Source: Trypanosoma brucei (Eukaryota). Taken from it: a stretch of 64,000 nt of DNA. Below the pieces are notes generated by a model that did not search any database, was not told the origin of the DNA, and worked only from the letters and a program-made list of their open reading frames with translations. The stretch lies in contig CP000067.1 in assembly GCA_000002445.1 (NCBI GenBank), positions 896,001-960,000 of the forward strand. The letters run 5' to 3'. Of this stretch, positions 26,613 to 64,000 are shown piece after piece (position 1 is the first letter of the stretch; each line of letters begins with the position of its first letter). A program made the position numbers and the translations under genes.

Positions 26613-26780
26613 CCTTACGGGCTGGGTTGTCGGGCTAAACTACGCACGTCGATCGGATGCACACTCACACGAGTGCTACTCCTCCCCCGCCTTGCTTTCG
26701 TGTCCCTTAGTTATCGCTCTTGTCTGACGACTTCGATGCTACCTACACACTTGCTAGTAAGCCAGTAACACCTAATTACT

Positions 26781-28533: not shown

Positions 28534-29569
28534 CCTTACGGGCTGGGTTGTCGGGCTAAACTACGCACGTCGATCGGATGCACACTCACACGAGTGCTAC
28601 TCCTCCCCCGCCTTGCTTTCGTGTCCCTTAGTTATCGCTCTTGTCTGACGACTTCGATGCTACCTACACACTTGCTAGTAAGCCAGTAACACCTAATTAC
28701 TAAACGAAAGCAAAGAAAGATGGAAGGAAAGGGAAAAAGTAATTAGAGCGGTGCGGTTTCGCGGTTACAGCAAACATGCCAAGAACCTACGGGGCGTCCC
28801 TGCGCAACGGAAGGAACCTCAAACAGGGGAAGCCCAACAGCAACAGCCAGGGTGACGACTTTTACGTATTCACAACATTGTTCCCGCCTAGACAGCTGTG
28901 CCACTGAGTGCAATGACGAGAGAGCAAAGCTACAGGGGTGAAAATATAAACATGCATAAAAGGGGGGATAGAATATTAGAATATTTATCTGAAACGGTGG
29001 CAGGGTGGACAAATCTCAAGCAGCAAACCCAACCCAAATTTCAAGCCACAGTCCATTTCAGGGTGATGGGTGTACATGAACTCTTTAACATGAGATTACG
29101 ACAATTCCTCAGACAGCGTATTTGTTTCCACTCCTTCATTTTCTCCTCTGAACGCATATGTGGAAATATAAGCCATGACAAAGCACGCTTTTTTTAACGT
29201 CAGCCCTCATTACCAGAAAACGGAAACACACATGAACATATCTGCAAATGATGGGAGAGTAGATGGGCGGGGGGAACGAATGGTTGAAGGAGCGAATGTA
29301 TCATCACCGCCGCAAAAAAACAAAAAAAAGACAGCGAAAAGTTGCAATTCAACGAGAGCGGGTGTGGAAAAAATGACCCATCCGGGCCTATTGACTGGGA
29401 GGTTTAACCTGATAAAGGACCCTACCCATGCTGCCATTAACTTAAACTCACTTCGTATAACAAACGATTTCTTCGCATTTCATCACGTCACACGCACTAT
29501 CAAGACCATTCCGTGATTCACACATTGTCGCAGATACAAAAACGTCAGTACCCGACTCCCCGGCCCACA

Positions 29570-30454
29570 TTAGCGAGCTGCAATGATAGCAAAAGAACAT
29601 TGTAACTTCTCGTCGACATTCATGACGGCTGCATCATTGTCAAATTCACCACAATAGTTCGGCGCAGAGAAGATGGTCACCAACTGGCGGTTTGCGAAGA
29701 AGCCGTAACCACGCTCCATCACTTGGTGAGCACGCACAACAAGGTCCATATCCACCATATCAAGGAAGTCAGTTACAATGTCTTCCCCAAACAGGTAACT
29801 CACACCGCGGTCACTCTCCAGGAAACCCTTTACTTCCTCCTCAGGATCTGCCCACAGCAAGTCACAGAGAATACCTTTGTCAGGCACATCCAGCGGGCGT
29901 TCTATTTCATTCACGGCAGCCAACGAAGTCATGTCCGGACTCAGCCCACCATGCATGCAGATGATTTTCTCACCTACAACACAGCATACAGGCATAGTGT
30001 TAAATACATCTGTGAATGCTTTAAACAGTTTGATGTTATAACGTCGCTTTACGTCATCGAAGAAACCGTACATTTTGTTTATGCTCGCACATTCATGATT
30101 ACCGCGAAGGAGAAAGAAATTCTCCGGATACACAATTTTATAACAAAAAAGCAAAGTGATTGTCTCTACGCTGTGTCGGCCACGGTCAACATAGTCACCT
30201 AGAAACAGGTAATTTGAATACGGTGGAAATCCACACTTCTCAAATACGCGCAGCAAGTCGTAGTATTGGCCATGGATATCCCCACAAATCCTCACTGGTG
30301 GCGTGATATCTAGCACAACCGGCTGTGACATGAATACGTCACGAACGGCATTGAGAATTGTCCGTATGTCCTCCTCGCGAATGAGAATTTGCCTTTGAGC
30401 CGTGTTTCCCTTGGCGCTGAGCATCCGCTCCAGCAGTGTCTGTACTAGGGTCAT
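29570..30454 (-). CDS. PP1: PP1 catalytic subunit, array copy 3
   Basis: Same family. Offset by 1921 bp from copy 2. Confidence 0.9.
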
Positions 30455-44043: not shown

Positions 44044-47000
44044 TTAATGCTTTTCCTTATTATTTAAAAAGGAAACCTCGTGTATCTGATCTCCAGGGAC
44101 GTGACAAGCGTTACCCGCATCAATTACAAATGCGGACATAAGCGCTTCAGGGCGATCAGTAATCAGTTTCATCCATTCGTTTCCGTCAAACACCTTAACG
44201 TGACGCGTGATGACCTTCTCCTTCTTGGTGGTGGGATCAGTCCACAACTCACAGTGCTCCCGCAAAAATACCAATTCCTTTTCTTTTGACGCACAGAGTG
44301 ACTCCAATGCGCTGTTTGTACCATTCAGTCCCTTCAATTGAGTTAGTAAGTCAACTATCTCTGCTTCAAGTGTAGCTAATGCAGTTTCTTTTTCAGATGA
44401 TAAAAGGGTCAGTTTTTCCTCTAAATGCTTAACCTTACACTGCAGTGCGCTATTGGCTGAGTCAGCCTCGAGTAGCCGCGCGCTAGTATCCTCGGCCAAC
44501 AACTCCTTCTCCGACAGACGTTGGGTCACCTCCTCTGCGAGCCTCTTATTCTCGGCAACCTTCAGCTCCAGCTCTTCTGCAAGTTTCTCATTCTCGGCAG
44601 CCTTCAGCTCAAGCTCTTCTGCAAGTTTCTCATTCTCGGCAGCCTTCAGCTCCAGCTCTTCTGCAAGCTTCTCATTCTCGGCAGCCTTCAGCTCAAGCTC
44701 TTCTGCAAGTTTCTCATTCTCGGCAACCTTCAGCTCCAGCTCTTCTGCAAGTTTCTCATTCTCGGCAGCCTTCAGCTCAAGCTCTTCTGCAAGTTTCTCA
44801 TTCTCGGCAACCTTCAGCTCAAGCTCTTCTGCAAGCTTCTCATTCTCGGCAGCCTTCAGCTCAAGCTCTTCTGCAAGTTTCTCATTCTCGGCAGCCTTCA
44901 GCTCCAGCTCTTCTGCAAGCTTCTCATTCTCGGCAGCCTTCAGCTCAAGCTCTTCTGCAAGTTTCTCATTCTCGGCAGCCTTCAGCTCAAGCTCTTCTGC
45001 AAGCTTCTCATTTTCGGCAGCCTTCAGCTCAAGCTCTTCTGCAAGCTTCTCATTTTCGGCAACCTTCAGCTCAAGCTCTTCTGCAAGCTTCTCATTCTCG
45101 GCAGCCTTCAGCTCAAGCTCTTCTGCAAGCTTCTCATTTTCGGCAACCTTCAGCTCAAGCTCTTCTGCAAGCTTCTCATTCTCGGCAGCCTTCAGCTCAA
45201 GCTCTTCTGCAAGTTTCTCATTCTCGGCAACCTTCAGCTCAAGCTCTTCTGCAAGCTTCTCATTCTCGGCAGCCTTCAGCTCAAGCTCTTCTGCAAGTTT
45301 CTCATTCTCGGCAACCTTCAGCTCAAGCTCTTCTGCAAGCTTCTCATTCTCGGCAGCCTTCAGCTCAAGCTCTTCTGCAAGCTTCTCATTTTCGGCAGCC
45401 TTCAGCTCAAGCTCTTCTGCAAGTTTCTCATTCTCGGCAGCCTTCAGCTCAAGCTCTTCTGCAAGCTTCTCATTTTCGGCAGCCTTCAGCTCAAGCTCTT
45501 CTGCAAGCTTCTCATTCTCGGCAACCTTCAGCTCAAGCTCTTCTGCAAGCTTCTCATTTTCGGCAGCCTTCAGCTCAAGCTCTTCTGCAAGCTTCTCATT
45601 CTCGGCAACCTTCAGCTCAAGCTCTTCTGCAAGCTTCTCATTCTCGGCAGCCTTCAGCTCAAGCTCTTCTGCAAGTTTCTCATTCTCGGCAGCCTTCAGC
45701 TCAAGCTCTTCTGCAAGTTTCTCATTCTCGGCAGCCTTCAGCTCCAGCTCTTCTGCAAGCTTCTCATTCTCGGCAGCCTTCAGCTCAAGCTCTTCTGCAA
45801 GCTTCTCATTTTCGGCAGCCTTCAGCTCAAGCTCTTCTGCAAGCTTCTCATTCTCGGCAGCCTTCAGCTCAAGCTCTTCTGCAAGTTTCTCATTCTCGGC
45901 AGCCTTCAGCTCAAGCTCTTCTGCAAGTTTCTCATTCTCGGCAACCTTCAGCTCAAGCTCTTCTGCAAGCTTCTCATTTTCGGCAACCTTCAGCTCAAGC
46001 TCTTCTGCAAGTTTCTCATTCTCGGCAGCCTTCAGCTCAAGCTCTTCTGCAAGTTTCTCATTCTCGGCAGCCTTCAGCTCAAGTTCTTCCATGAGTCTTT
46101 GTACCTGAACATTAAGATTCCGGATGTCACTGCGACTTTTGTTATTTTCAAGAACTAGTTGTTCGTTTTCAGCGGTTTTTCTCTGTATCTCCTCCGCCAA
46201 GCGCTCGTTCTGCAGGGTAACTCCGGACCTATCCCTTTCTTCTCTTTCAAGTTCCTCATGCATATTGTGCAGTTGCTCGCTTAGGCTTTGATTTTCTGCC
46301 ATAAGTTGCTCTAATCTGTCGTGGAGATTTTCTCGCTCGTCATTGGCTTGTTGAAGCTGCTGTCGCAACAGATCGTTTTCTTGCTGGAACTGGTTACTTC
46401 GATGCATATGGTCGTTGTACTCATCCAACGTCACCGAAAGCAGTGGTTCACTACTTATTTCGTCTGCGCTAACCATTTCCTGAAACGGCTTGGTTTGCGT
46501 CCCAATGGGTCGTAACGTAGGTTCAAGAGAGCGAACCTTGTGGGCATTTTGCCGTTTCTCTCTGTATGCCATGAGTTCCGCCTCCTGTTTGTCGAACAAC
46601 TCTTCTAGGTTGTTATAATGCTTTCGCAACTCTTCCAGCAATGCAGTTGTCTTGATATGGTCATCGATCTCACCCTCAAGCCTCTGCTGAAGATCAGATA
46701 TTTCCCTATCGCGCGCCTCAATGTGTGCTTGTGCGCTCTTCTCGGCCGCCCTGAGTGCCTCCAACTGTTCATCTAACTGTTCCAGATTCTCTAAGAGTCC
46801 CTCAATTTCCGCCTGTTTCTCTTCCAAGCGTTGAGTCATTTCTGAAAGCCCCTGCTCAGACAGTCTTGATTTCTCCTCCATCTGCCGAAGCTCGGCTTCG
46901 AGCCTCTCACACTCCGCTTCTAACTTTTCCTTTTCTTCCGAAACACCGCTTAACTCTGCCAGAAGGTCGTCCTGGGCGTTGAGAAGATTCTGGCACTGCT

Positions 47001-49122
47001 CCCGCTGCCGCTCTAGCTCCCGTTCAACTTGGTCACAGTGCTCCGTTTGCTCGCGGAGCTCGTCAAGGGTCACGCAGTAAACCGGTTCCGCGGTATCGTC
47101 CCCTCTGAAAGTCGACAAATTGCGCTGTGCACGTATTTGATTCGCCTGGGTTTTTTGGAGTTTCAATAACTCAAGTTCACTCGCCTGGTTATCGGCAAGA
47201 TCCCTAAGCTTTTCAACCAAATCACGCAAACGACCGATCTCAGCATGAAGCTCACCATTTCGCTGTCGCAGCGACTCCTGTTCGCGCATGGTTGATGCTG
47301 TCTGCCGGCGAAACTCCTCGGCGGATTTCTCAAGCGTGTACTGCAGTGAACGGTTCTCGTTATGGATTTTGTCCAGAAGCATAAGCAGGTCTCCTATCTC
47401 GCTTTCATACGCATCCTTATCGCCTACGCGGCCCTTCATAGCAACCTCTTCAATAAACTTGTCGAACGTCATACCGCGGAATGCATGCTCCCTGAGATCA
47501 AATGCGCGGCACACCTCAACAATTGCACGATCCAAACCCTTTTTGGGTTGGTCGACGTCGCAAAGCATCCGATCCATTCCACGGGAAGGAAATTCTTGCA
47601 GCCGCTTATTTATCTCCGCGGCAGTTTGTTTCACTGGGTGTTGAACGTCAAACGACACCTGTAGCTTCTCCGATGTAGCAGTGAACTCAATATTCCTAAT
47701 AGCATCCTCAGGAACATGGCAGGCCGCAGCCTGCTCGGTCCTGAATGTCGACAGAAGCTCCTCTGGCTTGCGTTCAACAACCTTCGACCACTCCCTCCCC
47801 GGATAAGACTTTCTGTGCTTGGTGGTGACGGTGGGTTCGTTCCGGTACATCCAACGCTCATCATGGCTGCTCAGTTCCTTGATAATTTCTTGTAAGTCCT
47901 TAATATTATTTGCAGAATCGCCTCTGGGGGCCTCAACAGACCTTAACCCGACGTCGGTTTCGATTCTTTCACGACGCGGAGCATTTGTCTTGCCTGCGTT
48001 TGTAAACAAACTGAACACGAAACGCTCCTGTAAATTCAAACGCCTTTCTTCAAGTTCGCTCGTGTACATTGAAAGGCAATGAAGCTCGGCCATCGCCTCC
48101 ATGTAGCTGTTAGATAAATGAGAAAAGTGATCATTTATCTGGAGGCGAGTTTGCTCTGCCTTATCGAGTATCAACCCCACTTCATCGTCAGTTAATACGC
48201 AGTCCTGTGCTGAAGGATCAACTCCCACAATGGATATGACGGAGGAGAGGGGAGCCTTAAGCTGCACCGACGTTTTGGTGAATGATGTTAACTGACCTCC
48301 GAATGTCGGCGTCCCTCCCCGTTCGAGCTCCTCCTTCAGCTTCATCACCTTCAAACGGCAGCCCTTCATTCCCGCAATGCAGTTTGCAATGGCATCATTT
48401 TGTTCCTGCACTCGTGTGTCCGTTGTCAGACGGCAGTACGCTTCCTGATACGCTAAAGCACTTAATACCCAGTGATGTAAGCTGCTGATTGCCTCAGAAT
48501 CTCGTGATGCAGCCAGTGACGAAAGACGCTGCTCGTTTAGTGATGAACATATCTCTTCAGCGTTAGGGTACGTTTTCCCAGTGATGTCTGCGCTTATGAA
48601 ATCTGCAATGGCATTCGGCCTCCGGTATTCCATACGAATGTCGTCCCATGTGGAGCAGTTGGTTACTGTCGGGTCGTTTTGTGCCAGCGCGAGCACAGAC
48701 TTGAGAACCTCAACGGCAACTGGAGAGGGGCATGCTTGAGACGTTACTTCCCGCATGTGCACTTCGTCAACGCTCGCCACACGCGCCTTGGCATCCTCAA
48801 ACACGGCGCGTGCGGCAGAAACGCGGTCTTCGTTTTCGCTGCGGATGGCAGCCAGTTTATCACGCGCACTGGAGAGCTGCTCCTGAAACACGCCCATGCG
48901 CTTCATCTCCTTCTGAATTTCGCTGGATATATTGTGCTTCAGCGTCTCGCAGCTACCTTCATTGACTGCCCACTGCTCCACGACAACAACATGTTTGTCG
49001 GAAGAGACGACCGTGCCCAAAGCCCACTGCCAGTGCTCTCCGTTTGCCAAATGATCGAATGCAATAACTTGGCCAGGCTGTAAAGTTAGTGGGTTTTCAC
49101 TGATAACATTCAGAAGAGCCAT
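44044..49122 (-). CDS. FAZ1: Giant coiled-coil repeat protein (1692 aa), FAZ1-like (flagellum attachment zone protein 1)
   Basis: It has a globular N-terminal region, then long coiled-coil, then about 37 tandem 14-aa repeats (ELELKAAENEKLAE / ELELKVAENEKLAE), then a coiled-coil C-terminus. Size and 14-aa repeat architecture match my recollection of T. brucei FAZ1. This attribution is from memory and is not searchable here. Confidence 0.75.
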   Translation of the reverse strand: MALLNVISENPLTLQPGQVIAFDHLANGEHWQWALGTVVSSDKHVVVVEQWAVNEGSCETLKHNISSEIQKEMKRMGVFQEQLSSARDKLAAIRSENEDRVSAARAVFEDAKARVASVDEVHMREVTSQACPSPVAVEVLKSVLALAQNDPTVTNCSTWDDIRMEYRRPNAIADFISADITGKTYPNAEEICSSLNEQRLSSLAASRDSEAISSLHHWVLSALAYQEAYCRLTTDTRVQEQNDAIANCIAGMKGCRLKVMKLKEELERGGTPTFGGQLTSFTKTSVQLKAPLSSVISIVGVDPSAQDCVLTDDEVGLILDKAEQTRLQINDHFSHLSNSYMEAMAELHCLSMYTSELEERRLNLQERFVFSLFTNAGKTNAPRRERIETDVGLRSVEAPRGDSANNIKDLQEIIKELSSHDERWMYRNEPTVTTKHRKSYPGREWSKVVERKPEELLSTFRTEQAAACHVPEDAIRNIEFTATSEKLQVSFDVQHPVKQTAAEINKRLQEFPSRGMDRMLCDVDQPKKGLDRAIVEVCRAFDLREHAFRGMTFDKFIEEVAMKGRVGDKDAYESEIGDLLMLLDKIHNENRSLQYTLEKSAEEFRRQTASTMREQESLRQRNGELHAEIGRLRDLVEKLRDLADNQASELELLKLQKTQANQIRAQRNLSTFRGDDTAEPVYCVTLDELREQTEHCDQVERELERQREQCQNLLNAQDDLLAELSGVSEEKEKLEAECERLEAELRQMEEKSRLSEQGLSEMTQRLEEKQAEIEGLLENLEQLDEQLEALRAAEKSAQAHIEARDREISDLQQRLEGEIDDHIKTTALLEELRKHYNNLEELFDKQEAELMAYREKRQNAHKVRSLEPTLRPIGTQTKPFQEMVSADEISSEPLLSVTLDEYNDHMHRSNQFQQENDLLRQQLQQANDERENLHDRLEQLMAENQSLSEQLHNMHEELEREERDRSGVTLQNERLAEEIQRKTAENEQLVLENNKSRSDIRNLNVQVQRLMEELELKAAENEKLAEELELKAAENEKLAEELELKVAENEKLAEELELKVAENEKLAEELELKAAENEKLAEELELKAAENEKLAEELELKAAENEKLAEELELKAAENEKLAEELELKAAENEKLAEELELKAAENEKLAEELELKAAENEKLAEELELKVAENEKLAEELELKAAENEKLAEELELKVAENEKLAEELELKAAENEKLAEELELKAAENEKLAEELELKAAENEKLAEELELKAAENEKLAEELELKVAENEKLAEELELKAAENEKLAEELELKVAENEKLAEELELKAAENEKLAEELELKVAENEKLAEELELKAAENEKLAEELELKVAENEKLAEELELKAAENEKLAEELELKAAENEKLAEELELKAAENEKLAEELELKAAENEKLAEELELKAAENEKLAEELELKVAENEKLAEELELKAAENEKLAEELELKVAENEKLAEELELKAAENEKLAEELELKAAENEKLAEELELKAAENEKLAEELELKVAENKRLAEEVTQRLSEKELLAEDTSARLLEADSANSALQCKVKHLEEKLTLLSSEKETALATLEAEIVDLLTQLKGLNGTNSALESLCASKEKELVFLREHCELWTDPTTKKEKVITRHVKVFDGNEWMKLITDRPEALMSAFVIDAGNACHVPGDQIHEVSFLNNKEKH
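44509..46085. repeat. 42-bp (14-codon) in-frame tandem repeat, about 37 copies, inside the FAZ1-like CDS
   Basis: Period-42 repetition of ctcggcagccttcagctcaagctcttctgcaagcttctcatt. Variants gcagcc/gcaacc give A/V, and ctcaag/ctccag and aagctt/aagttt are synonymous. Confidence 0.9.
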
Positions 49123-52100: not shown

Positions 52101-55100
52101 TTTTAACGGAGGTATCAATAATAACTTCAACAGAGGTTGAAACGAGGATACTTAGTGTGGAAAGGGCTGATGAATACATCTAGGACGCGAACCGGTAAGT
52201 ACCTTAATTTCGGGTAAATGATAATAATAATAATAACCGTATTTCTCCAGTAGTCATACCATAAACCGAGCACATGCATAATGAGTTGTTAAAACACGCA
52301 CACTATCTTCATTGTCACCAGTGTATGACACCCAACGCTGATCAAGCGCGTAGGCAACATATTACAAACGGGTGTTAAGTTGTATGAAATATGGCACTGT
52401 TTCAAATGCTACCCCCTTCTCAACAGCGTCAGTACACCTCGCACTGCAGTCGGACGAAGGCACAGATGTGACACCCAACGTCACGGTGTTTCAACAAGAC
52501 GCTTGCAGAGCGTGCAGAAAAGTGATTCCTTTGCGGCTGTGCCTATGCGCGCACCCCATTACCATCAGTACTCCCGAACAGGAACCCACCTTCCGAGACG
52601 ACAACAACGGCTGGTATAAAGATCAACGACCATGCACTTGCCAGCGCGCAGCGGACGCAACTCATAGACCCATAAAAGCATGAATTCAATAAAACAATAG
52701 CAACACCAATGTGAAAACGTCTGCGATAGCGCCGCCACCTTCATTCACCCGGTCCACTGCACTGCGCACCGCTCCCACACCGATAGGTGCCAGAGGCATC
52801 GATGAACGACTACTTCGCAGCACCTCCAAAACGGTTTTAGACAGAAATTAGCAGGGCCGCCGGCTCGCCCGGGCACTAAAGCAATCCCTTAAACTACCTG
52901 AAACCTGGCGGAAGACCCCACGGAAACGCACGGGCGGAGGCCTACAGAGAAAGGCGCCCCGCTACGCACAGGCGCCCTCGCCGGCTCACAAAAAGGAAAC
53001 CATGCGTACCTCCCACTCACGAGACACACCACAACCGCCGAACCCCATACCGTGTGGACGTCCCCCGCGCGCAGGGGGAACCACGGGTTTACTGCTGCAG
53101 TCCCGTCACCCCAGCAGCGAACACGCGGATCCCTCGCGATAGCCGAAAACAAAGCAGAGGGAAATGACTCGCGTCTGTCGGGGCCGCGGACGCCAGCGCC
53201 TCAACAGGTCAACTTTGGGCAGAACCTCCTCAGGTCGGGGACGTCAAGAGCCCCCACGTGGCACCGGGGTTGAGTACATCATTAAAGGGGAGGCCAAACG
53301 ACTGTTCGCACCCTGTCATCAGGGAGACATGGCAGCTCGCCGGCTGTTGGTTGTTGGGGTAATGGGAGAAGTGGAAACGATATTGGCTCCCTGATGTGGG
53401 AACCGATATCTTTGTTGTCCCTTGCACGCTCTTGCATGTTCCCGTGGGCGTGTAGGGGCAACTCCCGTTGTGGAGAAGATATCAGAGGCAACTGTAATTC
53501 ACCTACTGGCGTATGGTAAGGGACTGTCTCTTCAAATTTTTTTGGGGGAAAAGGAAGGCTTCTTTTGCGTTTTGAAGGGGACATACATCCACGCGACGAA
53601 GAAGTGAACTGCAAAATGATGCCTGTATTTCCGGAGCATTGATATAGCAAACCCTTCTAGGGGTTGACGAGTGTCAAAATCGGCAGAAAATAGCACAGGT
53701 AGAATGCAAGGCTCGTAACAAAATGGGGACTGGAAGAGTGCCAGCTAAACCGAAACTCGCTCAGGAGTAGTGGAACACACTCGTGTCAATATTTTTCTGT
53801 GGCCAAATCTGGAATCACCTGACCACTACTGGAAGGTTGCATGGAAGAGATAGTTTGAAGGTTTGCAGAAAGGCAATGGAGTAGCAATTCGACGAAGGAG
53901 GAAACTTAAATACCCCACATATCACGCGGAATGCTGCCTTGGAATAGGATTCCGCAGAATATGAGGGATAAATGTTATTGCCGCCTGAAGGAATAATAGT
54001 CACTTATAGGGATAGGGGTTTACGATGGGAATTAGGCAGTTCCTTCAGCTGTTGGAAGTTTTGAAGCAAATAGACAAGACAGAAAAAACAATGAACTTCC
54101 TGAGGAATCAGAGCAGGCAATGCAAAAGGCACTGACCGAAGCGCAGAGTAGAACACGATACAAATGTAGATGGTGCGATTATTAGCGTGTTCATGTGTCG
54201 GGGCCCATTCTGCACACAAGGAACAAACACTCGGTGGAAGTTGGAATGAAAAAAGATACAAATGATAAAGCATCTCCGGCATCAAAGACAGCTCCAAAGA
54301 CCCTCCAACGCTCGCAGTACAAAATGCGTGCAACAAAGTGACCTCACTGAACTCATGCAGCGGAAAGGCGAATGCAAAATAGGAAAAAAAGCACAACACT
54401 GTAAAAAGTGGGTACTACTCATCTTCCCTAAAACCGTCACAACACCCCTCCCCAGGAAGCGCTGCGTAGAGAAAGCGGTCGAAAATGCCGCAAACAGATG
54501 GTTGCCGTTTCGCATGCAACTGGCACGTTTCCATGCAAGCTATTTCAACCAAAGGATTTGGAGCTAAACACAGAGGAGCGTCAACAGACTCAAGATAACT
54601 GTCAAAGGAATTCACACTGAAACGACCATGGGTTGGGAAAAAGGAAAAGGGGGACTACTTCGCCGACGGCCAAGCCTACCTACATTCCGCCACGCCATAC
54701 TTTGAAGAACCCGGCGTGTGAGTGCTGCTTGCGGCCGAGGGCACACAACTCATTGGCGCAAAAGGTGACAGTCACGCGGCGGTGTGGAACCGCACGATTC
54801 GATCAGATACTAGGGGAATAACTTTACTGCGGCGCCATGTCGGTAAGTAGCTTCGGGCCAACAAAAAACTGGCGATAGCACCAAGTGTGCGTGCCAACAT
54901 CGGGAGCTCACACCTGATGCGTCACCCCTCAAGGGAAGTGCGGGGCGCACCAATGGATGTCATAGAACTTCACCGAGCAGTGATGGTCAACATCTCCTCG
55001 ATATGAGTGTGTGGAACGTACGGGGTGAGCCCATTCGCCAACAGCTTCTCTGCATTCGTAGACCAAATCCAAACGGAGAAATTTTCTCAGGACAGCCGAC

Positions 55101-55974
55101 GAACTCTGACGGAAGAATTGGAACTGGTGGAACGCGCACGAATTGGAGAAATGTCTGAGGTGCGGCATCCGTGTTGCAACCGCAGGGGTTGTTCCTTGAA
55201 TCACAGCCACACCACAACACTCAACACCTCAACTTACTAAACTCGATAAGGGGATTGCGAGGTGTCATCGCTCATTGAATGGGGGAACTGGTCGACATGC
55301 AGAGGTAGCTTCCAGGCCGCATGACAAATGAAGGGTGTTTCGTGCCGTTCTGAGAGCACAAGGCTCCGGTCCGTTGCAACTGGTGCGTCAAGAAAGTGTA
55401 CGCGTCGGGGCCATTCAACCTCCTGGCGGCTATATGAGACGGTGCTCCAAAACCGACTACCGGCAGGAGAAACATTTCGTTGATCCCTACGCGCCCCGGG
55501 CAACAGATTACTTATCCTCGCCCTTAAGGCATTCGACGTGAGTTTATGGAATGGAATCGTACCTGCTGCACGGGAGAGTTATCAATAATTTCCATACAGA
55601 AACACCCTAAGAAGGTGGAGCGTTTGGATGTCCACGAGGCGGTGAAAGCGATGAGTTGCGCGCGCAAAGCCATCGAGAACATCGTTGGTAATGGAATTGG
55701 GGACTTTATGAGGGAGGGGCCCACACTAGAACCGGGATTTCGGCCGGGTCGCCCCACGCTAAGGCTGCTTCAGCGCTTCCAGATGGCCCTTGGTCACCCG
55801 TCGCCGTCGCACATGGGAGCGGCATTCATAGTTTACGCGAATGCCTTGGATGTCACACGGAAAGCGGCTGATGGTTTTATTTTACAGCAGAATGAAAGGA
55901 ACAAAAGTTGGCAAAACACTGTTAAACAGCCGGACGCTTGCAAGAGGCATAAAGCAACTGCATCAGAGCGCACT

Positions 55975-58211
55975 GTGCCCCTCAGCCTCGGACTCGCAGA
56001 GCCAACTCTTGGAAGCATTTCCGCTATCACATGACGGCTTTTTTGCGGATAATTTGGCGCTATCGGCGCGATGCACGAAGAGGGACCCCGAAGACCGCAC
56101 ACCGCAGGGCAGCCCCGGCGTTGTGATACAATGGCAGCAAAAGTGACTTATGTACGCCCGCACGCCGGTGACGAAATGCAAACTGCTCAGTTACATTGAA
56201 CACTTATCGTCAATGTAACATCACGGTGGGGCTCGGGCTGGGGTTGGAAAAGTACCGAAGATGTTTTGGGACGGCGCGCTGCGCAAACACAGCGAATAGC
56301 AAGCCGCAGGGCGCTGAAAATAGAAACCGTTTGGGCGACGGCGTATCACCCAGATGAGGCGTTGCGTGCTTTACACTTCCGGTTTTTACAATTACGTGAC
56401 ACGTGCAGAGCTGATGTGTGGCATTAGTGCGTCTCAGAAGGTATTCGAGAGGCGACCGGAGCGGAGCGGCACAAAGACAGCCAAACCATCGAGGATGTAT
56501 CGCACGCGCACTATACAACCCCACCCGTAACTTCGTGCCGGGACGGAAGCCGCTGATCCAAACTTCTCCAACGCCTTCCTTTTCAATGCAACAGGGCCTT
56601 CCGCGGGAAGATAAGGCCCGTGTGCGCAAACTGTCCCGGAGAGGCTTAGATCGGCGAATGGACATTCTTAAACCAGAGGTCCGGCCAGACCCTCAGCCCA
56701 AGTGAGGACGAAAAAACGATACATCAGGTCAACAAAAGCGGCGGCGCACTTGCACGTGGGCGCTGTGTAGGACCCCTTGCACTGGCGGTGGGCCTGCGAA
56801 AGGCACCGAATCCCTTCCTAATTCACAAGGCGGTGCTGCCCAGCCTCTCGATATACCCGCTTTCGTTCTCCACCATGCCGGAGGCGAGCGCAGTTACCAT
56901 TACTGACCCGTCCCTGCACAAATTGCGGTGGTCAGCTGTGACAATACCGGGCAGGAACAATTGCATTAGACCACAGTTTGTACTCCCCTGCTGCGGCGTG
57001 GCATTGAACGAAGGCGCGCGGCGAAATTGCGAAGAATGTCGTTGGCATGTCACAGTTGCCCGACCGGGGGTTTGCAGACACCGCGGCCTATTCGAAGCGT
57101 TTGTTGTGATCTGGGGAAATATACTCGGGGGCCCACCGGGACACATTTCACGACCAAATGCAAAGAATGGATGCGCGGGCCGACAGCGTTGGCTGGCACT
57201 GCTGGTGGTCGCCGCACAAAATCAACTCATGGGTGGCCCGTTCCACCGGTGGCAGGAACCGTAATTTCCACTGGCGACGCTTGCACCCCAACCAATCCCA
57301 ACGACCACGACCTCGGTGTTAACAACCTTCTTTCACGCTGAGGGACAAAAAAGGTGTACTAATTGCGGTGCGATATGGCAAACACCGAACGAGTGCAGTG
57401 ACGAATATGGCGGCGGATCTTCTGGCGTAGGCGCGTTCTTTTGAAAAATGAAATGCGGTGATGCGTCGCGTCCAGCGTATGATCCATCAGAACCCATGCA
57501 ACCGCGGCCCGTACTGGCGCCTTCGCGAGTATCAACAACAGCAAGCCTCAACACTAAACATTCAAAGGCGTCACGACGGCACCACCTTCGCAGCCACATT
57601 TGTGATACAAAGCAATCGGTTCGCGAGCTAAACAGGTCTTGAATTGAAAAGCAGGATGCAAGATGTAAAGCAATAACTACAAGACAGCGCATCTACCGCA
57701 AGAAAACATTGTTTTACCCAACAAGCTACCATGCCCCGGAGGCAACATAGCCAACACCAAACGACACCGCCATCCTGCAGAAGTTCTGCTTCTCCGGTCG
57801 CCTTGAATAACTTCAACTCACCACAAAACGACTCCAGCGCTTGACGCCACTCTTAGCTACGACTATTGAAAAACAGGGTAAACAGGAACAAAAATCATAC
57901 AGCACCCCCATTAACAAGAGAATAGACAGAAAAAACTAAGCAACAAACAAAGAAGTGGAAAAGTAGGCAAGTCAGCAAGTCTAACATCTAGCATCGCCTC
58001 CTCACCCTTCAACAAACACACACCCAAAAGACAAAACAATGCACGAAAAATATTCACATCAGCAAAAGAAAAAAAACCAAAAATACAAAATAAAGAAAAA
58101 AACAACATTTATCAGCGGTGAAGAGAACGGTACAACTAAAGAAAAAACAAGAATAAAAAAAGACACAATCAACAAACACAAAACATATTAAAACCAGCGA
58201 CAAATGGGTAT
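55975..58211. repeat. Inverted repeat, left arm (at least 2.2 kb) flanking the 147-bp array
   Basis: Reverse complement of 61776..64000. Paired ORF translations show 98-99% identity (57333..57692 minus = 62286..62645 plus; 56210..56665 minus = 63313..63768 plus). The arm start is set by the window end on the partner arm. Confidence 0.85.
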
Positions 58212-61200
58212 GATTGTGCAACACTGTTTTTGCACAATCATACGCATAAACGCGTATTTGACGTGAAAATACGCAATAGTGCACAATTTGCACACAAACA
58301 TGCCACATTGTGCATGTTATGCAAGAATGCGTGTTTTGCACCAAAACACCTTACATATTGCATTGCAACACTGTTTTTGCGCAATCATACGCATGAACGC
58401 GTATTTGACGTGAAAATACGCAATAGTGCACAATTTGTGAACAAACATGCCACATTGTGCATGTTATGCAAGAATGCGTGTTTTGCACCAAAACACCTTA
58501 CATATTGCATTGCAATACTGTTTTTGCACAATCATACGCATAAACGCGTATTTGACGTGAAAATACGCAATAGTGCACAATTTGCACACAAACACGCCAC
58601 ATTGTGCATGTTATGCAAGAATGCGTGTTTTACACCAAAACACCTTACATATTGCATTGCAACACTGTTTTTGCGCAATCATACGCATGAACGCGTATTT
58701 GACGTGAAAATACGCAATAGTGCACAATTTGCACACAAACATGCCACATTGTGCATGTTATGCAAGAATGCGTGTTTTACACCAAAACACCTTACATATT
58801 GCATTGCAACACTGTTTTTGCACAATCATACGCATAAACGCGTATTTGACGTGAAAATACGCAATAGTGCACAATTTGCACACAAACATGCCACATTGTG
58901 CATGTTATGCAAGAATGCGTGTTTTGCACCAAAACACCTTACATATTGCATTGCAACACTGTTTTTGCGCAATCATACGCATAAACGCGTATTTGACGTG
59001 AAAATACGCAATAGTGCACAATTTGCACACAAACATGCCACATTGTGCATGTTATGCAAGAATGCGTGTTTTACACCAAAACACCTTACATATTGCATTG
59101 CAATACTGTTTTTGCACAATCATACGCATAAACGCGTATTTGACGTGAAAATACGCAATAGTGCACAATTTGCACACAAACACGCCACATTGTGCATGTT
59201 ATGCAAGAATGCGTGTTTTACACCAAAACACCTTACATATTGCATTGCAACACTGTTTTTGCGCAATCATACGCATGAACGCGTATTTAACGTGAAAATA
59301 CGCAATAGTGCACAATTTGCACACAAACACGCCACATTGTGCATGTTATGCAAGAATGCGTGTTTTACACCAAAACACCTTACATATTGCATTGCAACAC
59401 TGTTTTTGCGCAATCATACGCATGAACGCGTATTTGACGTGAAAATACGCAATAGTGCACAATTTGCACACAAACACGCCACATTGTGCATGTTATGCAA
59501 GAATGCGTGTTTTACACCAAAACACCTTACATGTTGCATTGCAACACTGTTTTTGCGCAATCATACGCATAAACGCGTATTTGACGTGAAAATACGCAAT
59601 AGTGCACAATTTGCACACAAACACGCCACATTGTGCATGTTATGCAAGAATGCGTGTTTTACACCAAAACACCTTACATGTGGCATTGCAACACTGTTTT
59701 TGCGCAATCATACGCATAAACGCGTATTTGACGTGAAAATACGCAATAGTGCACAATTTGCACACAAACACGCCACATTGTGCATGTTATGCAAGAATGC
59801 GTGTTTTACACCAAAACACCTTACATATTGCATTGCAACACTGTTTTTGCGCAATCATACGCATGAACGCGTATTTGACGTGAAAATACGCAATAGTGCA
59901 CAATTTGCACACAAACACGCCACATTGTGCATGTTATGCAAGAATGCGTGTTTTACACCAAAACACCTTACATGTTGCATTGCAACACTGTTTTTGCGCA
60001 ATCATACGCATAAACGCGTATTTGACGTGAAAATACGCAATAGTGCACAATTTGCACACAAACATGCCACATTGTGCATGTTATGCAAGAATGCGTGTTT
60101 TGCACCAAAACACCTTACATATTGCATTGCAACACTGTTTTTGCACAATCATACGCATAAACGCGTATTTGACGTGAAAATACGCAATAGTGCACAATTT
60201 GCACACAAACATGCCACATTGTGCATGTTATGCAAGAATGCGTGTTTTACACCAAAACACCTTACATATTGCATTGCAATACTGTTTTTGCACAATCATA
60301 CGCATAAACGCGTATTTGACGTGAAAATACGCAATAGTGCACAATTTGTGAACAAACATGCCACGTTGTGCATGTTATGCAAGAATGCGTGTTTTACACC
60401 AAAACACCTTACATGTTGCATTGCAACACTGTTTTTGCGCAATCATACGCATAAACGCGTATTTGACGTGAAAATACGCAATAGTGCACAATTTGCACAC
60501 AAACATGCCACATTGTGCATGTTATGCAAGAATGCGTGTTTTGCACCAAAACACCTTACATATTGCATTGCAACACTGTTTTTGCACAATCATACGCATA
60601 AACGCGTATTTGACGTGAAAATACGCAATAGTGCACAATTTGCACACAAACATGCAACATTGTGCATGTTATGCAAGAATGCGTGTTTTACACCAAAACA
60701 CCTTACATATTGCATTGCAACACTGTTTTTGCGCAATCATACGCATGAACGCGTATTTGACGTGAAAATACGCAATAGTGCACAATTTGCACACAAACAT
60801 GCCACATTGTGCATGTTATGCAAGAATGCGTGTTTTGCACCAAAACACCTTACATATTGCATTGCAACACTGTTTTTGCACAATCATACGCATAAACGCG
60901 TATTTGACGTGAAAATACGCAATAGTGCACAATTTGTGAACAAACATGCCACATTGTGCATGTTATGCAAGAATGCGTGTTTTGCACAAAAACACCTTAC
61001 ATGTTGCATTGCAACACTGTTTTTGCGCAATCATACGCATGAACGCGTATTTGACGTGAAAATACGCAATAGTGCACAATTTGTGAACAAACATGCCACA
61101 TTGTGCATGTTATGCAAGAATGCGTGTTTTGCACCAAAACACCTTACATGTTGCGTTGCAACACTGTTTTTGCGCAATCATACGCATGAACGCGTATTTG

Positions 61201-61780
61201 ACGTGAAAATACGCAATAGTGCACAATTTGCACACAAACATGCCACATTGTGCATGTTATGCAAGAATGCGTGTTTTGCACCAAAACACCTTACATATTG
61301 CATTGCAACACTGTTTTTGCGCAATCATACGCATGAACGCGTATTTGACGTGAAAATACGCAATAGTGCACAATTTGTGAACAAACATGCAACGTTGTGC
61401 ATGTTATGCAAGAATGCGTGTTTTGCACCAAAACACCTTACATATTGCATTGCAACACTGTTTTTGCGCAATCATACGCATGAACGCGTATTTGACGTGA
61501 AAATACGCAATAGTGCACAATTTGTGAACAAACATGCAACGTTGTGCATGTTATGCAAGAATGCGTGTTTTGCACCAAAACACCTTACATATTGCATTGC
61601 AACACTGTTTTTGCACAATCATACGCATGAACGCGTATTTGACGTGAAAATACGCAATAGTGCACAATTTGTGAACAAACATGCCACATTGTGCATGTTA
61701 TGCAAGAATGCGTGTTTTGCACAAAAACACCTTACATATTGCATTGCAACACTGTTTTTGCACAATCATACCCATTTGTC
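58200..61780. repeat. 147-bp AT-rich satellite, about 24 tandem copies (CIR147-like candidate centromeric repeat)
   Basis: Exact 147-bp periodicity (e.g. tacgcat[a/g]aacgcg at 58241 and 58388) with a small set of recurring unit variants. A 1229-aa open frame is an artefact of 147 = 3 x 49. Confidence 0.9.
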
Positions 61781-64000
61781 TCTGGTTTCAATATGTTTTG
61801 TGTTTGTTGATTGTGTCTTTTTTTATTCTTGTTTTTTCTGTAGTTGTCCCGTTCTCTTCACCGCTGATAGATGTTTTTTTTTCTTTATTTTGTATTTTTG
61901 GTTTTTTTTCTTTTGCTGATGTGAATATTTTTCGTGCATTGTTTTGTCTTTTGGGTGTGCGTTTGTTGAAGGGTGAGGAGGCGATGCTAGATGTTAGACT
62001 TGCTGACATGCCGACTTTTCCACTTCTTTGTTTGTTGCTTAGTTTTTTCTGTCTATTCTCTTGTTAATGGGGGTGCTGTATGATTTTGGTTCCTGTTTAC
62101 CCTGTTTTTCAGTAGTCGTAGCTAAGAGTGGCGTCAAGCGCTGGAGTCGTTTTGTGGTGAGTTGAAGTTATTCAAGGCGACCGGAGAAGCAGAACTTCTG
62201 CAGGATGGCGGTGTCGTTTGGTGTTGGCTATGTTGCCTCCGGGGCATGGTAGCTTGTTGGGTAAAACAATGTTTTCTTGCGGTAGATGCGCTGTCTTGTA
62301 GTTATTGCTTTACATCTTGCATCCTGCTTTTCAATTCAAGACCTGTTTAGCTCGCGAACCGATTGCTTTGTATCACAAATGTGGCTGCGAAGGTGGTGCC
62401 GTCGTGACGCCTTTGAATGTTTAGTGTTGAGGCTTGCTGTTGTTGATACTCGCGAAGCCGCCAGTACGGGCCGCGGTTGCATGGGTTCTGATGGATCATA
62501 CGCTGGACGCGACGCATCACCGCATTTAATTTTTCAAAAGAACGCGCCTACGCCAGAAGATCCGCCGCCATATTCGTCACTGCACTCGTTCGGTGTTTGC
62601 CATATCGCACCGCAATTAGTACACCTTTTTTGTCCCTCAGCGTGAAAGAAGGTTGTTAACACCGAGGTCGTGGTCGTTGGGATTGGTTGGGGTGCAAGCG
62701 TCGCCAGTGGAAATTACGGTTCCTGCCACCGGTGGAACGGGCCACCCATGAGTTGATTTTGTGCGGCGACCACCAGCAGTGCCAGCCAACGCTGTCGGCC
62801 CGCGCATCCATTCTTTGCATTTGGTCGTGAAATGTGTCCCGGTGGGCCCCCGAGTATATTTCCCCAGATCACAACAAACGCTTCGAATAGGCCGCGGTGT
62901 CTGCAAACCCCCGGTCGGGCAACTGTGACATGCCAACGACATTCTTCGCAATTTCGCCGCGCGCCTTCGTTCAATGCCACGCCGCAGCAGGGGAGTACAA
63001 ACTGTGGTCTAATGCAATTGTTCCTGCCCGGTATTGTCACAGCTGACCACCGCAATTTGTGCAGGGACGGGTCAGTAATGGTAACTGCGCTCGCCTCCGG
63101 CATGGTGGAGAACGAAAGCGGGTATATCGAGAGGCTGGGCAGCACCGCCTTGTGAATTAGGAAGGGATTCGGTGCCTTTCGCAGGCCCACCGCCAGTGCA
63201 AGGGGTCCTACACAGCGCCCACGTGCAAGTGCGCCGCCGCTTTTGTTGACCTGATGTATCGTTTTTTCGTCCTCACTTGGGCTGAGGGTCTGGCCGGACC
63301 TCTGGTTTAAGAATGTCCATTCGCCGATCTAAGCCTCTCCGGGACAGTTTGCGCACACGGGCCTTATCTTCCCGCGGAAGGCCCTGTTGCATTGAAAAGG
63401 AAGGCGTTGGAGAAGTTTGGATCAGCGGCTTCCGTCCCGGCACGAAGTTACGGGTGGGGTTGTATAGTGCGCGTGCGATACATCCTCGATGGTTTGGCTG
63501 TCTTTGTGCCGCTCCGCTCCGGTCGCCTCTCGAATACCTTCTGAGACGCACTAATGCCACACATCAGCTCTGCACGTGTCACGTAATTGTAAAAACCGGA
63601 AGTGTAAAGCACGCAACGCCTCATCTGGGTGATACGCCGTCGCCCAAACGGTTTCTATTTTCAGCGCCCTGCGGCTTGCTATTCGCTGTGTTTGCGCAGC
63701 GCGCCGTCCCAAAACATCTTCGGTACTTTTCCAACCCCAGCCCGAGCCCCACCGTGATGTTACATTGACGATAAGTGTTCAATGTAACTGAGCAGTTTGC
63801 ATTTCGTCACCGGCGTGCGGGCGTACATAAGTCACTTTTGCTGCCATTGTATCACAACGCCGGGGCTGCCCTGCGGTGTGCGGTCTTCGGGGTCCCTCTT
63901 CGTGTATCGCGCCGATAGCGCCAAATTATCCGCAAAAAAGCCGTCATGTGATAGCGGAAATGCTTCCAAGAGTTGGCTCTGCGAGTCCGAGGCTGAGGGG
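61776..64000. repeat. Inverted repeat, right arm; runs off the window end
   Basis: See left arm. The true extent is unknown. Confidence 0.85.

What the first reader, a model, noticed from the sequence alone, without database searches (positions are those of the whole stretch)
58190..58240. Array/arm junctions are symmetric: each inverted-repeat arm ends in a 14-nt piece of the satellite unit, creating a short palindrome at the left junction
The left arm ends …gacaaatggGTATGATTGTGCAAcactgtttTTGCACAATCATACgcataaacgcg. The right arm begins (61776) …TTGCACAATCATACccatttgtc…, which is the exact reverse complement. The 14-nt segment ttgcacaatcatac belongs to the repeat unit. At the left edge it therefore faces its own reverse complement across an 8-nt spacer. 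This is the footprint expected if the inverted duplication arose by hairpin or fold-back priming within the satellite, or by recombination between inverted satellite units. It pins the symmetry axis of the palindrome to the array itself.
Basis: seen in the sequence. Interest (0 to 1): 0.5.

Follow-up and report, generated by a model that had tools for sequence, protein, structure and literature searches.

The report
Trypanosome centromere satellite between invertible arms
The 14-base hairpin is real: it is the scar where one of two inverted 3.5-kb flanks meets, head-on, the one-directional 147-bp centromere satellite of Trypanosoma brucei chromosome 4, and the whole satellite block lies the other way round in the sister subspecies, so it appears to flip between its flanks.

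Summary
GTATGATTGTGCAA (58208-58221) faces TTGCACAATCATAC (58230-58243) across CACTGTTT. The right-hand copy is at 61758-61771, not 61776.

The window is the T. b. brucei TREU927 chromosome 4 centromere: a CIR147 147-bp array, 24 copies here but about 70 kb by published mapping, between inverted arms that Obado 2007 called head-to-head DIREs.

The array runs in one direction, so it is not a palindrome with its axis in the satellite.
- **Right junction (R):** the array ends in register against the arm.
- **Left junction (L):** the inverted arm plus 14 nt is fused to a forward unit inside TGCAA. In the unit, TGCAA is the natural inverted partner of TTGCA 8 nt downstream. This is a 5-nt microhomology breakpoint, and the hairpin is its by-product.

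The identical L junction occurs on T. b. gambiense chromosome 5, where only one arm is seen. It also occurs at the opposite end of gambiense chromosome 4, where the junction-array-junction block is inverted relative to TREU927.

Best reading: a flank module was duplicated in inverted orientation by template switching or microhomology joining, and the two arms now mediate flip-flop inversion of the centromeric array. The main caveat is that these are old Sanger assemblies phased through near-identical arms.

The parts
54679..58207 (.). Left inverted-repeat arm (flank module). Only 55978-58207 can be paired inside the window, because the partner runs off the window end.
   Evidence: 99.4% reverse-complementary to 61772-64000. 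The outer boundary at 54679 (CTACATTCCGCC) is inferred from Logan contigs L001-L003. These match the gambiense chromosome 4 right arm (99.95% to L007 18447-20306) and diverge from the window exactly there.
57746..58207 (.). Inner 462-nt spacer of the left arm. It is 47% A on the + strand, so pyrimidine-rich on the strand that reads away from the array.
   Evidence: composition. Of the 14 differences between the arms, 11 fall in the inner 341 nt (P = 2.6e-7). 57745/57746 is the site where gambiense carries a RIME insertion.
58208..58221 (+). Inverted 14-mer GTATGATTGTGCAA: inner end of the left arm and left stem of the hairpin. Its last 5 nt, TGCAA (58217-58221), are also the first 5 nt of the first forward unit, so they are the microhomology at the breakpoint.
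   Evidence: three-way comparison of the L junction, a forward unit and the reverse complement of the R junction.
58222..58229 (+). 8-nt loop CACTGTTT. This is native unit sequence lying between TGCAA and TTGCA.
58230..58243 (+). Forward 14-mer TTGCACAATCATAC of the first unit: right stem of the hairpin.
58217..61771 (+). CIR147 centromeric satellite: 24 full 147-bp units plus a terminal 27-nt partial unit, all in one orientation.
   Evidence: TRF: period 147, 24.2 copies, 97% matches. (units in register; no reverse 20-mers; the published TALE target TTGACGTGAAAATAC occurs 23 times on + and 0 times on -). PMC12975129, PMC1868937 and PMC3292466 (array about 70 kb in vivo).
61758..61771 (+). Terminal 14-mer TTGCACAATCATAC, in register with the array and abutting the right arm (R junction, CATAC|CCATTTGTC).
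61772..64000 (.). Right inverted-repeat arm, cut by the window end. It would run to about 65300 if it is 3,529 nt long like the gambiense-type arm.
44044..49122 (-). FAZ1 gene. This is the landmark used to identify the organism and to orient the comparison with gambiense.
   Evidence: 100% identical to XP_844524.1 of T. b. brucei TREU927, on a contig of 1,590,432 bp.

Best explanation
**Locus (shown).** This is the chromosome 4 centromere of T. brucei brucei TREU927. A one-directional CIR147 satellite lies between two inverted copies of a roughly 3.5-kb flank module.

**Junction anatomy (shown).** Each module copy carries the same satellite end at its inner tip.
- At the R junction (right side here) the array simply stops in register at ...TTGCACAATCATAC|CCATTTGTC.
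- At the L junction (left side here) the inverted module with its 14 satellite bases is fused to a forward unit within the pentamer TGCAA.
- In the unit, TGCAA is the inverted partner of TTGCA 8 nt downstream.
- L therefore equals the reverse complement of R up to TGCAA, and equals a normal unit from TGCAA onward.
- The 14/8/14 hairpin follows automatically from this fusion.

**Origin (inferred).**
- R is the primary boundary between array and flank.
- L arose once, by a microhomology-mediated template switch or end joining at that native dyad. This happened when the module was copied in inverted orientation to the far end of the array.
- An equivalent route is a microhomology-mediated inversion of the array against a module.

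**Spread and inversion.**
- Shown: the same L junction and arm occur on gambiense chromosome 5.
- Shown in the assemblies: the gambiense chromosome 4 block is inverted relative to TREU927.
- Inferred: recombination between the arms flips the whole junction-array-junction block, giving two isomers, as in yeast centromeres flanked by inverted repeats.
- Inferred: gene conversion keeps the arms nearly identical except for the roughly 340 nt next to the array.
For: **Identity.**
- FAZ1 is 100% identical to the TREU927 protein.
- The array has a 147-bp unit and carries the published CIR147 TALE target (PMC12975129).
- The literature describes 'head-to-head DIREs either side of a 3.5 kb AT-rich element' on chromosome 4 (PMC1868937).

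**Breakpoint.**
- Three-way comparison and alignment A1: two R junctions (TREU927 right, DAL972 left) and the aligned L junctions are all identical from TTGCACAATCATAC outward.
- The L junctions switch to reverse-oriented array just inside it.
- The native dyad TGCAA-N8-TTGCA is present in 10 of 25 TREU927 units and 17 of 17 gambiense chromosome 5 units.

**The L junction is real and shared.**
- Found at L006 about 10066-10101, on DAL972 chromosome 5.
- Found at L007 17451-17486, on the DAL972 chromosome 4 right side.

**Inversion.**
- In L007 the FAZ1-side junction is R-type (13946-13959).
- Both array segments are reverse-oriented relative to the window.
- The far junction is L-type.

**Phasing support.**
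- In gambiense the L junction lies about 470 nt from a RIME present only in the right arm. Independent short-read contigs link that RIME-bearing arm to DNA that is not on the FAZ1 side.
- A G insertion in the spacer is shared only by the two chromosome 4 arms that carry L: TREU927 left and DAL972 right.
- The gambiense chromosome 5 copy joins L, the arm and 613 nt of FAZ1-side flank. That reproduces the TREU927 arrangement.

**Concerted evolution.**
- Gambiense-specific variants are shared by both chromosome 4 arms and by chromosome 5.
- Differences between the TREU927 arms cluster in the inner 341 nt.
Against: - All three assemblies are Sanger-era and their arrays are collapsed or gapped. TREU927 shows 3.6 kb against about 70 kb by mapping. 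Both DAL972 arrays contain a 100-N gap.
- Linking a junction type to a chromosome side means crossing 3.5 kb of 99.4-99.9% identical arm. The TREU927/DAL972 orientation difference could therefore be a phasing error in either assembly.
- Only one shared spacer character (the G insertion) links the two L-bearing arms.
- The right arm of TREU927 beyond 64000 was not seen. Its outer boundary is inferred from gambiense-like contigs.
- The direction of events (R first, then L) rests on parsimony only.
- I could not confirm that the arms contain a DIRE. Pfam scans of all six frames gave nothing, and no ingi/RIME 5' sequence is present.
Confidence: 0.6

Rival explanations
1. The inverted duplication arose by hairpin or fold-back priming inside the satellite, giving a true palindrome whose axis lies within the array. 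Inverted satellite halves would be hidden by the assembly collapse.
For: - The L junction sits on a native 5-nt dyad and forms a strong hairpin.
- The array is collapsed about 20-fold in the assembly (PMC3292466).
- From my own knowledge of Wickstead 2004, T. brucei minichromosomes are built on palindromic 177-bp arrays. That paper is not held.
Against: - Every assembled unit in TREU927 chromosome 4, DAL972 chromosome 4 (both sides of the gap) and DAL972 chromosome 5 has one orientation per array.
- Each chromosome 4 assembly has one R and one L junction, not two R junctions.
- A fold-back at the terminal unit predicts arm-14-8-14-arm with no array between.
- The same junction exists on chromosome 5, where only one arm is seen in the assembly.
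Confidence: 0.08
2. There is no biological flip. The junction anatomy is real, but the opposite orientation of the block in TREU927 and DAL972 is an assembly phasing error through the near-identical 3.5-kb arms.
For: - The arms differ at only 3 sites in their outer 1.9 kb in TREU927.
- DAL972 has a gap inside the array, so its two junction contigs were placed independently.
- Both are old Sanger assemblies.
Against: - In gambiense the RIME marks the right arm. It is linked within read length to the L junction, and independent short-read contigs link it to DNA that is not on the FAZ1 side.
- The gambiense chromosome 5 paralogue preserves L, the arm and FAZ1-side flank as one piece. This shows that the TREU927-type arrangement existed.
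- The G insertion in the spacer follows the L junction to opposite sides.
Confidence: 0.3
3. L came first. The original boundary between array and flank was made by end joining after snap-back synthesis. A 3' end ...TGCAA-N8-TTGCA folded back, copied 9 nt (CAATCATAC) and was then ligated to the flank. This is a templated insertion of the polymerase-theta or microhomology-joining type. The R junction arose later by inversion at the same dyad.
For: - The stem beyond the native 5-nt dyad is exactly what snap-back copying would add.
- The chromosome 5 array has L only.
- The arm copy with the longer shared flank (4.14 kb) is joined to L in TREU927 and on chromosome 5.
- From my own knowledge, T. 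brucei repairs breaks mainly by microhomology-mediated joining.
Against: - It needs an extra step. R needs no special explanation, because the array continues in register for 27 nt and more up to the flank.
- In gambiense the shorter, presumably derived, right arm is the one carrying L.
Confidence: 0.12
4. The hairpin is a selected functional element, for example a cruciform or protein-binding site marking the centromere edge, rather than a scar.
For: The 36-nt core is identical in three L junctions across two subspecies and two chromosomes. The flanking spacer, by contrast, has accumulated differences.
Against: - The R junction lacks it (-3.7 kcal/mol), yet it bounds the same centromere.
- The three copies are explained by common descent plus gene conversion.
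- Edge units are generally 'frozen'.
- No evidence bears on binding.
Confidence: 0.04

Closest known systems
T. brucei chromosome 4 centromeric domain as described by Obado et al. 2007 (PMC1868937) and Echeverry et al. 2012 (PMC3292466)
   Same: It is this very locus. [quoted passage not shown] Restriction mapping shows the real array is about 70 kb.
   Different: In the parts I read, those papers do not describe several things found here:
- the junctions at base resolution;
- the microhomology breakpoint;
- the shared junction on chromosome 5;
- any difference in orientation between strains.

I also could not reproduce the DIRE assignment with Pfam.
Centromeres flanked by inverted repeats with an invertible core: Komagataella phaffii (PMC5010909). 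From my own knowledge, also the S. pombe imr/central core and Candida tropicalis.
   Same: - An inverted repeat of a few kb brackets the centromere core.
- Isolates differ in core orientation, attributed to recombination in the repeats (K. phaffii abstract).
- The arms are kept nearly identical.
   Different: - Here the core is a roughly 70-kb tandem satellite rather than a 1-kb unique sequence.
- The arm is shared with another chromosome, whereas K. phaffii centromeres are unrelated to one another in sequence.
- Kinetochore occupancy of the arms is unknown.
Palindromic 177-bp repeat cores of T. brucei minichromosomes (Wickstead et al. 2004; cited from my own knowledge and from reference lists, paper not held)
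   Same: Same organism. A satellite array is associated with an inversion point.
   Different: In minichromosomes the array itself switches orientation near its middle. Here the array runs in one direction, and the only switch is at its edge, against a non-satellite arm.
Microhomology-mediated template switching and fold-back inversion junctions (FoSTeS/MMBIR; replication U-turns at short inverted repeats; Tetrahymena rDNA palindrome formation; Leishmania inverted amplicons, PMC4028189 as cited). All from my own knowledge.
   Same: - The breakpoint lies in a 5-nt microhomology that is one half of a short native inverted repeat.
- The product is an inverted duplication with a short asymmetric spacer at the junction.
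   Different: - The palindrome at the junction extends only 14 nt, not along the whole duplicated segment.
- No chromosome arm was lost.
- A second, outer junction at 54679 is needed.

Membership tests
CIR147 centromeric satellite of T. brucei | Tandem array of AT-rich units of about 147 bp | tested here: met
   period 147, 24.2 copies, 97% matches. GC is 0.38-0.39.
CIR147 centromeric satellite of T. brucei | Contains the published consensus segment TTGACGTGAAAATAC (the 147R-TALE target) | tested here: met
   23 exact copies on the + strand and none on the - strand. The target sequence is taken from PMC12975129.
CIR147 centromeric satellite of T. brucei | Lies on chromosome 4 of T. brucei, between directional gene clusters | tested here: met
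   FAZ1 is 100% identical to TREU927 XP_844524.1 on a 1.59-Mb contig. All large ORFs from 3.8 to 49 kb are on the - strand.
CIR147 centromeric satellite of T. brucei | Bound by kinetochore proteins and a site of topoisomerase-II cleavage | not testable with these tools
   Literature only (PMC1868937, PMC12975129).
Invertible centromere flanked by inverted repeats (K. phaffii / S. pombe type) | Near-identical inverted repeats directly bracket the centromere core | tested here: met
   99.4% over 2,229 nt in the window. DAL972 shows both arms.
Invertible centromere flanked by inverted repeats (K. phaffii / S. pombe type) | Core orientation is polymorphic between isolates | tested here: inconclusive
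   The TREU927 and DAL972 assemblies show opposite orientation, with the junctions swapped. The RIME marker and the G-insertion marker support this. It rests on assemblies only.
Invertible centromere flanked by inverted repeats (K. phaffii / S. pombe type) | Arms are specific to each centromere | tested here: not met
   The same arm (97.8-98.1% over 4.14 kb) flanks the chromosome 5 array in DAL972.
Fold-back (hairpin-primed) palindrome | The two arms are symmetric right up to a short non-palindromic centre | tested here: not met
   A 3.56-kb one-directional array (about 70 kb in vivo) separates the arms. Palindromy at the L junction stops after 14 nt.
Fold-back (hairpin-primed) palindrome | The junction lies at a pre-existing short inverted repeat | tested here: met
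   TGCAA-N8-TTGCA is native to the unit.
Palindromic satellite array (minichromosome 177-bp type) | The array switches orientation internally | tested here: inconclusive
   No reverse units occur in any assembled part. However, the arrays are collapsed or gapped.
Microhomology-mediated rearrangement junction | The two parental sequences share only a few bases at the breakpoint | tested here: met
   the reverse complement of R and a forward unit share only TGCAA. The bases on either side of it differ.
DIRE (degenerate ingi/L1Tc-related element) in the arms | Recognisable remains of reverse transcriptase or endonuclease, or the conserved ingi/RIME 5' end | tested here: not met
   Pfam gave no hits on three-frame translations of the - strand of 49200-57750 (E up to 0.01) or of the + strand of roughly 54.4-57.75 kb (E up to 0.1). 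There is no match to the RIME 5' motif or to the whole gambiense RIME. The DIRE label rests on PMC1868937 only.

The most novel reading that the evidence does not exclude
The chromosome 4 centromeric satellite of T. brucei is a recombinationally invertible cassette, and both isomers exist in the species. The arm together with its L junction has been exchanged between the centromeres of chromosomes 4 and 5. Trypanosome centromere flanks would then evolve by exchange between centromeres and by concerted evolution. A further, speculative step: transcripts running from one arm through the array into the other arm, or across an L junction, would fold back on themselves. That could supply the double-stranded RNA behind the DCL2-dependent CIR147 siRNAs, whose origin Tschudi et al. 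2012 called unexplained.
Probability: 0.35. Interest if true: 0.65.

Novelty: new member of a known kind. Interest (0 to 1): 0.45.

Why it matters
Trypanosome centromeres lack CENP-A and use an unconventional kinetochore, and little is known about how their DNA is organised or how it evolves.

A base-level description of the array edges would place a kinetoplastid among organisms with invertible centromeres flanked by inverted repeats, a layout so far documented mainly in yeasts. It would also show that centromere flanks are homogenised between chromosomes.

There are three practical consequences:
- It gives unique junction sequences (the 36-mer L core and the R core) that can anchor and orient long-read assemblies of these arrays.
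- It offers a concrete, testable source of double-stranded RNA for the CIR147 siRNAs.
- It warns that reference assemblies may hold this region in either orientation.

Tried and rejected
1. **Rfam scan** of the whole window: no hits, so the arms are not rRNA or another known RNA.

2. **Pfam on arm translations**: three-frame translations of the - strand of 49200-57750 and of the + strand of roughly 54.4-57.75 kb gave no hits. A search for the ingi/RIME 5' motif and a BLAST of the gambiense RIME against the window also found nothing. The DIRE label could not be reproduced.

3. **Exact-protein look-ups that found nothing on record**: junction-spanning and spacer ORFs of the window, FAZ1 of TREU927 and the window's 101-aa arm ORF.

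4. **Homology search with the array ORF**: no hits. The exhaustive representative search was what finally produced P0011.

5. **15-nt reverse-oriented satellite fragment at 51000-51014**: it does not extend, and BLAST gives E = 1.4, so I treat it as chance.

6. **First reading of 57745 as the end of a dispersed element, rejected.** The Logan contigs stop there because gambiense-type right arms carry a RIME at that site.

7. **Independent DIRE insertions into the satellite, rejected.** Target-site duplications are direct repeats, not inverted ones. The arms are also 99.4% identical, including 462 nt of non-element spacer and the 14-mer.

8. **Assembler-made L junction, rejected.** The junction carries arm-specific variants within 20 nt, and it recurs in two DAL972 contigs on two chromosomes.

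9. **Literature searches** for a reported centromere inversion between DAL972 and TREU927 found nothing. The nanopore paper PMC11739655 and the TALE paper PMC12975129 do not mention inverted flanks in the passages matched by searches for 'invert', 'palindrom' and 'orientation'.


Full report

Yes. The window reads ...GACAAATGG-GTATGATTGTGCAA-CACTGTTT-TTGCACAATCATAC-GCATAAACGCG. The two 14-mers are at 58208-58221 and 58230-58243.

The right-hand copy TTGCACAATCATAC|CCATTTGTC is at 61758-61771, and the arm proper begins at 61772.

The hairpin has a 14-bp stem and an 8-nt loop:
- It is the longest perfect short-loop hairpin in the window.
- No block shuffle (0 of 30) reaches a 14-bp stem.
- As single-stranded DNA it folds at -17.1 kcal/mol, z = -7.3. 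The same site in ordinary units gives about -6, and the right junction gives -3.7.

The flanking arms are reverse complements at 99.4%, with 13 substitutions and 1 indel in 2,229 nt. The right arm is cut by the window end.

**2. What is the locus?**

- All large ORFs from 3.8 to 49 kb are on the minus strand.
- The last of these, 44044-49122, carries 14-residue repeats. It is 100% identical to FAZ1 of T. brucei brucei TREU927, on a contig of 1,590,432 bp.
- The repeat has a 147-bp unit, 24.2 copies and 97% identity. It contains the published CIR147 TALE target TTGACGTGAAAATAC 23 times, always on the plus strand (PMC12975129).
- Obado et al. [quoted passage not shown]
- Echeverry et al. 2012 list the array as 3.6 kb in the reference but about 70 kb by restriction mapping (PMC3292466). 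The array in the window is therefore a collapsed version of the real one.
- I could not reproduce the DIRE label: Pfam gave nothing on the arm translations, and there is no ingi/RIME 5' sequence.

**3. Anatomy of the junctions.**

All 24 full units and the terminal 27-nt partial unit point the same way, and the window contains no reverse 20-mers of the unit.

I call the right junction R. There the array runs in register up to ...CATTGCAACACTGTTTTTGCACAATCATAC and then meets CCATTTGTC.

I call the left junction L. Comparing it with a forward unit and with the reverse complement of R shows:
- L is identical to the reverse complement of R up to and including TGCAA.
- L is identical to a forward unit from TGCAA onward.
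- The two parental sequences share only those five bases.

In the unit, TGCAA (positions 1-5) is the inverted partner of TTGCA (positions 14-18, in the A variant), 8 nt downstream. This native dyad is present in 10 of 25 units here.

The 14/8/14 hairpin is therefore the native 5/8/5 dyad, lengthened by the 9 nt CAATCATAC that the inverted arm brings with it. R needs no coincidence. If L were the original boundary, a 9-nt match would have to be explained by chance or by snap-back copying. I therefore take R as primary and L as derived.

**4. Related loci.**

Three loci could be fetched.

*L005 and L007: T. b. gambiense DAL972 chromosome 4.* In window-like orientation L007 reads, in order:
- FAZ1;
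- the left arm;
- an R-type junction in mirror image (GACAAATGG-GTATGATTGTGCAA-AAACAGTGTTGCAATGC);
- CIR147 units all reverse-oriented relative to the window;
- a 100-N gap;
- more reverse-oriented units;
- an L junction (GTATGATTGTGCAA-AAACAGTG-TTGCACAATCATAC-CCATTTGTC);
- the right arm.

The whole junction-array-junction block is thus inverted relative to TREU927, with R and L swapped.

*L006: DAL972 chromosome 5.* A CIR147 array ends in the same L junction and the same arm, at 97.8-98.1% over 4.14 kb. The other end of that array abuts unrelated DNA next to ISG65/75 genes. There is no second arm within the 7.6 kb assembled on that side.

*L001-L004: short-read contigs from runs ERR79291xx.*
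- They match the gambiense chromosome 4 right arm at 99.95%, including the first bases of a RIME poly(A).
- They continue outward into DNA that matches neither the window nor the FAZ1 side.
- They leave the window's sequence at 54679.
- This places the outer boundary of the inverted repeat at 54679, so the arms are 3,529 nt plus the 14-mer.
- The chromosome 5 copy shares a further 613 nt (to 54066) with the FAZ1-side flank of chromosome 4.

**5. What this says about mechanism.**

The L junction is not an artefact of the TREU927 assembly. It is also not a private footprint of this locus, because its 36-nt core is identical in three copies on two chromosomes and in two subspecies.

The structure is not a palindrome centred in the satellite:
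- Each chromosome 4 assembly has one R and one L junction and a one-directional array.
- The only change of orientation is L itself, at the edge of the array.
- A simple fold-back at the terminal unit would give arm-14-8-14-arm with no array in between and would lose a chromosome arm. Neither is seen.

The simplest history consistent with everything seen has four steps.
1. A flank module abutted the array at R.
2. About 3.5 kb of that module, with its satellite tip, was copied in inverted orientation to the far end of the array. The nascent strand or broken end switched to the forward array at the TGCAA microhomology, and a second, outer junction formed at 54679. This created L. The same L could equally come from a microhomology-mediated inversion between TGCAA and TTGCA.
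3. Recombination between the two arms then flips the block and gives two isomers.
4. An L-bearing isomer donated array, L, the arm and 613 nt of FAZ1-side flank to chromosome 5.

Steps 2 and 4 are inference. Step 3 is supported by the assemblies and by three pieces of linkage evidence:
- In gambiense a 502-nt RIME with a 12-bp target duplication (TTGCCTCCGGGG) marks the right arm about 470 nt from the L junction. Independent short-read contigs tie that RIME-bearing arm to the side away from FAZ1.
- A G insertion in the spacer is shared only by the two chromosome 4 arms that carry L, which lie on opposite sides in the two subspecies.
- The chromosome 5 paralogue preserves the TREU927-type linkage of L to FAZ1-side flank.

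**6. Evolution of the arms.**

- Differences between the two TREU927 arms are concentrated next to the array: 11 of 14 lie in the inner 341 nt (P = 2.6e-7).
- Gambiense-specific variants are shared by both chromosome 4 arms and partly by chromosome 5.
- The modules therefore group by subspecies rather than by position. This indicates gene conversion between the arms and between chromosomes, weaker at the inner edge.
- In gambiense chromosome 4 the internal units have TGCTA instead of TGCAA. Only the unit next to each junction keeps TGCAA...TTGCA. Edge units thus escape array homogenisation and are inherited with the arm.

**7. Caveats.**

- Every comparison rests on Sanger-era assemblies with collapsed or gapped arrays.
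- Assigning a junction type to a chromosome side requires crossing 3.5 kb of nearly identical arm.
- I give the flip about 0.6, and an assembly phasing error about 0.3.
- A hidden orientation switch deep inside the roughly 70-kb array cannot be excluded.
- The order of events (R before L) is a parsimony argument.

**8. Comparison with what is known, and novelty.**

The locus and its inverted flanks are already in the literature at map resolution. In the papers I could search I did not find:
- the base-level junctions;
- the microhomology breakpoint at a native dyad;
- the same junction and arm on chromosome 5;
- the opposite orientation of the block in gambiense.

The closest analogue in how it works is the yeast centromere flanked by inverted repeats whose core orientation differs between isolates (K. 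phaffii, PMC5010909). The differences here are a large satellite core and an arm shared between chromosomes.

I rate it a new member of a known kind, of moderate interest. It would be more interesting if long reads confirm the two isomers, or if the arms and the L junction prove to be the source of the double-stranded RNA for the CIR147 siRNAs, a question left open by Tschudi et al. 2012 (PMC3447711).

Noticed in passing
L007 17957-18458 (DAL972 chromosome 4 right arm); equivalent to window 57745/57746 and 62233/62234: A 502-nt insertion that begins GGGCCCTGGCGATGCCGG..., ends in poly(A) and is flanked by a 12-bp direct duplication, TTGCCTCCGGGG. From my own knowledge this looks like a RIME retroposon. 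It is absent from both TREU927 arms and from the gambiense left arm, so it serves as a physical marker of the gambiense right arm.
   Followed up: partly
window 58230-61919 (+); L007 13798-15198 and 15670-17373; L006 10001-10396: Because 147 is divisible by 3 and one frame has no stop codon, the whole array reads as a 1,229-aa ORF. In DAL972, pieces of it are annotated as proteins of 466, 568 and 131 aa ('hypothetical protein, unlikely'). These are almost certainly annotation artefacts.
   Followed up: partly
window 44404-46000 within FAZ1 (44044-49122, - strand): About 38 tandem copies of a 42-nt unit encoding the 14-residue FAZ1 repeat EELELKAAENEKLA. The gambiense protein is 56 residues longer (1,748 aa against 1,692 aa).
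   Followed up: no
window 25728-30454 and 19105-21947 (- strand): Three tandem ORFs of 294 aa spaced 1,921 nt apart, and two tandem ORFs of 261 aa spaced 2,057 nt apart. These are tandem gene arrays inside the polycistron and were not identified.
   Followed up: no
window 51000-51014: A 15-nt exact match to the reverse complement of the satellite unit (GGTGTTTTGGTGCAA), 7 kb left of the array. It does not extend, and BLAST gives E = 1.4, so it is probably chance.
   Followed up: yes
window 54066-54678; L006 13629-14240: The flank shared between the chromosome 4 left side and gambiense chromosome 5 extends 613 nt beyond the outer boundary of the chromosome 4 inverted repeat. This suggests that a chromosome 4 left-side segment (or its source) was exchanged with chromosome 5.
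   Followed up: partly
L007 13942-17470: TRF reports a 441-nt (three-unit) higher-order period in the gambiense chromosome 4 array. The internal units carry TGCTA where the TREU927 and chromosome 5 units have TGCAA, and only the two edge units keep TGCAA.
   Followed up: partly
window 2368-2404: The only other perfect short hairpin in the window: TTTCCTCTTCCA, a 13-nt loop, then TGGAAGAGGAAA (12-bp stem). It lies in the 5' part of the window.
   Followed up: no
window 57746-58207 and 61772-62233: The inner 462 nt of each arm is strongly pyrimidine-rich on the strand that reads away from the array (47% T). This resembles trypanosome intergenic or splice-acceptor regions and fits transcription diverging from the centromere.
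   Followed up: no
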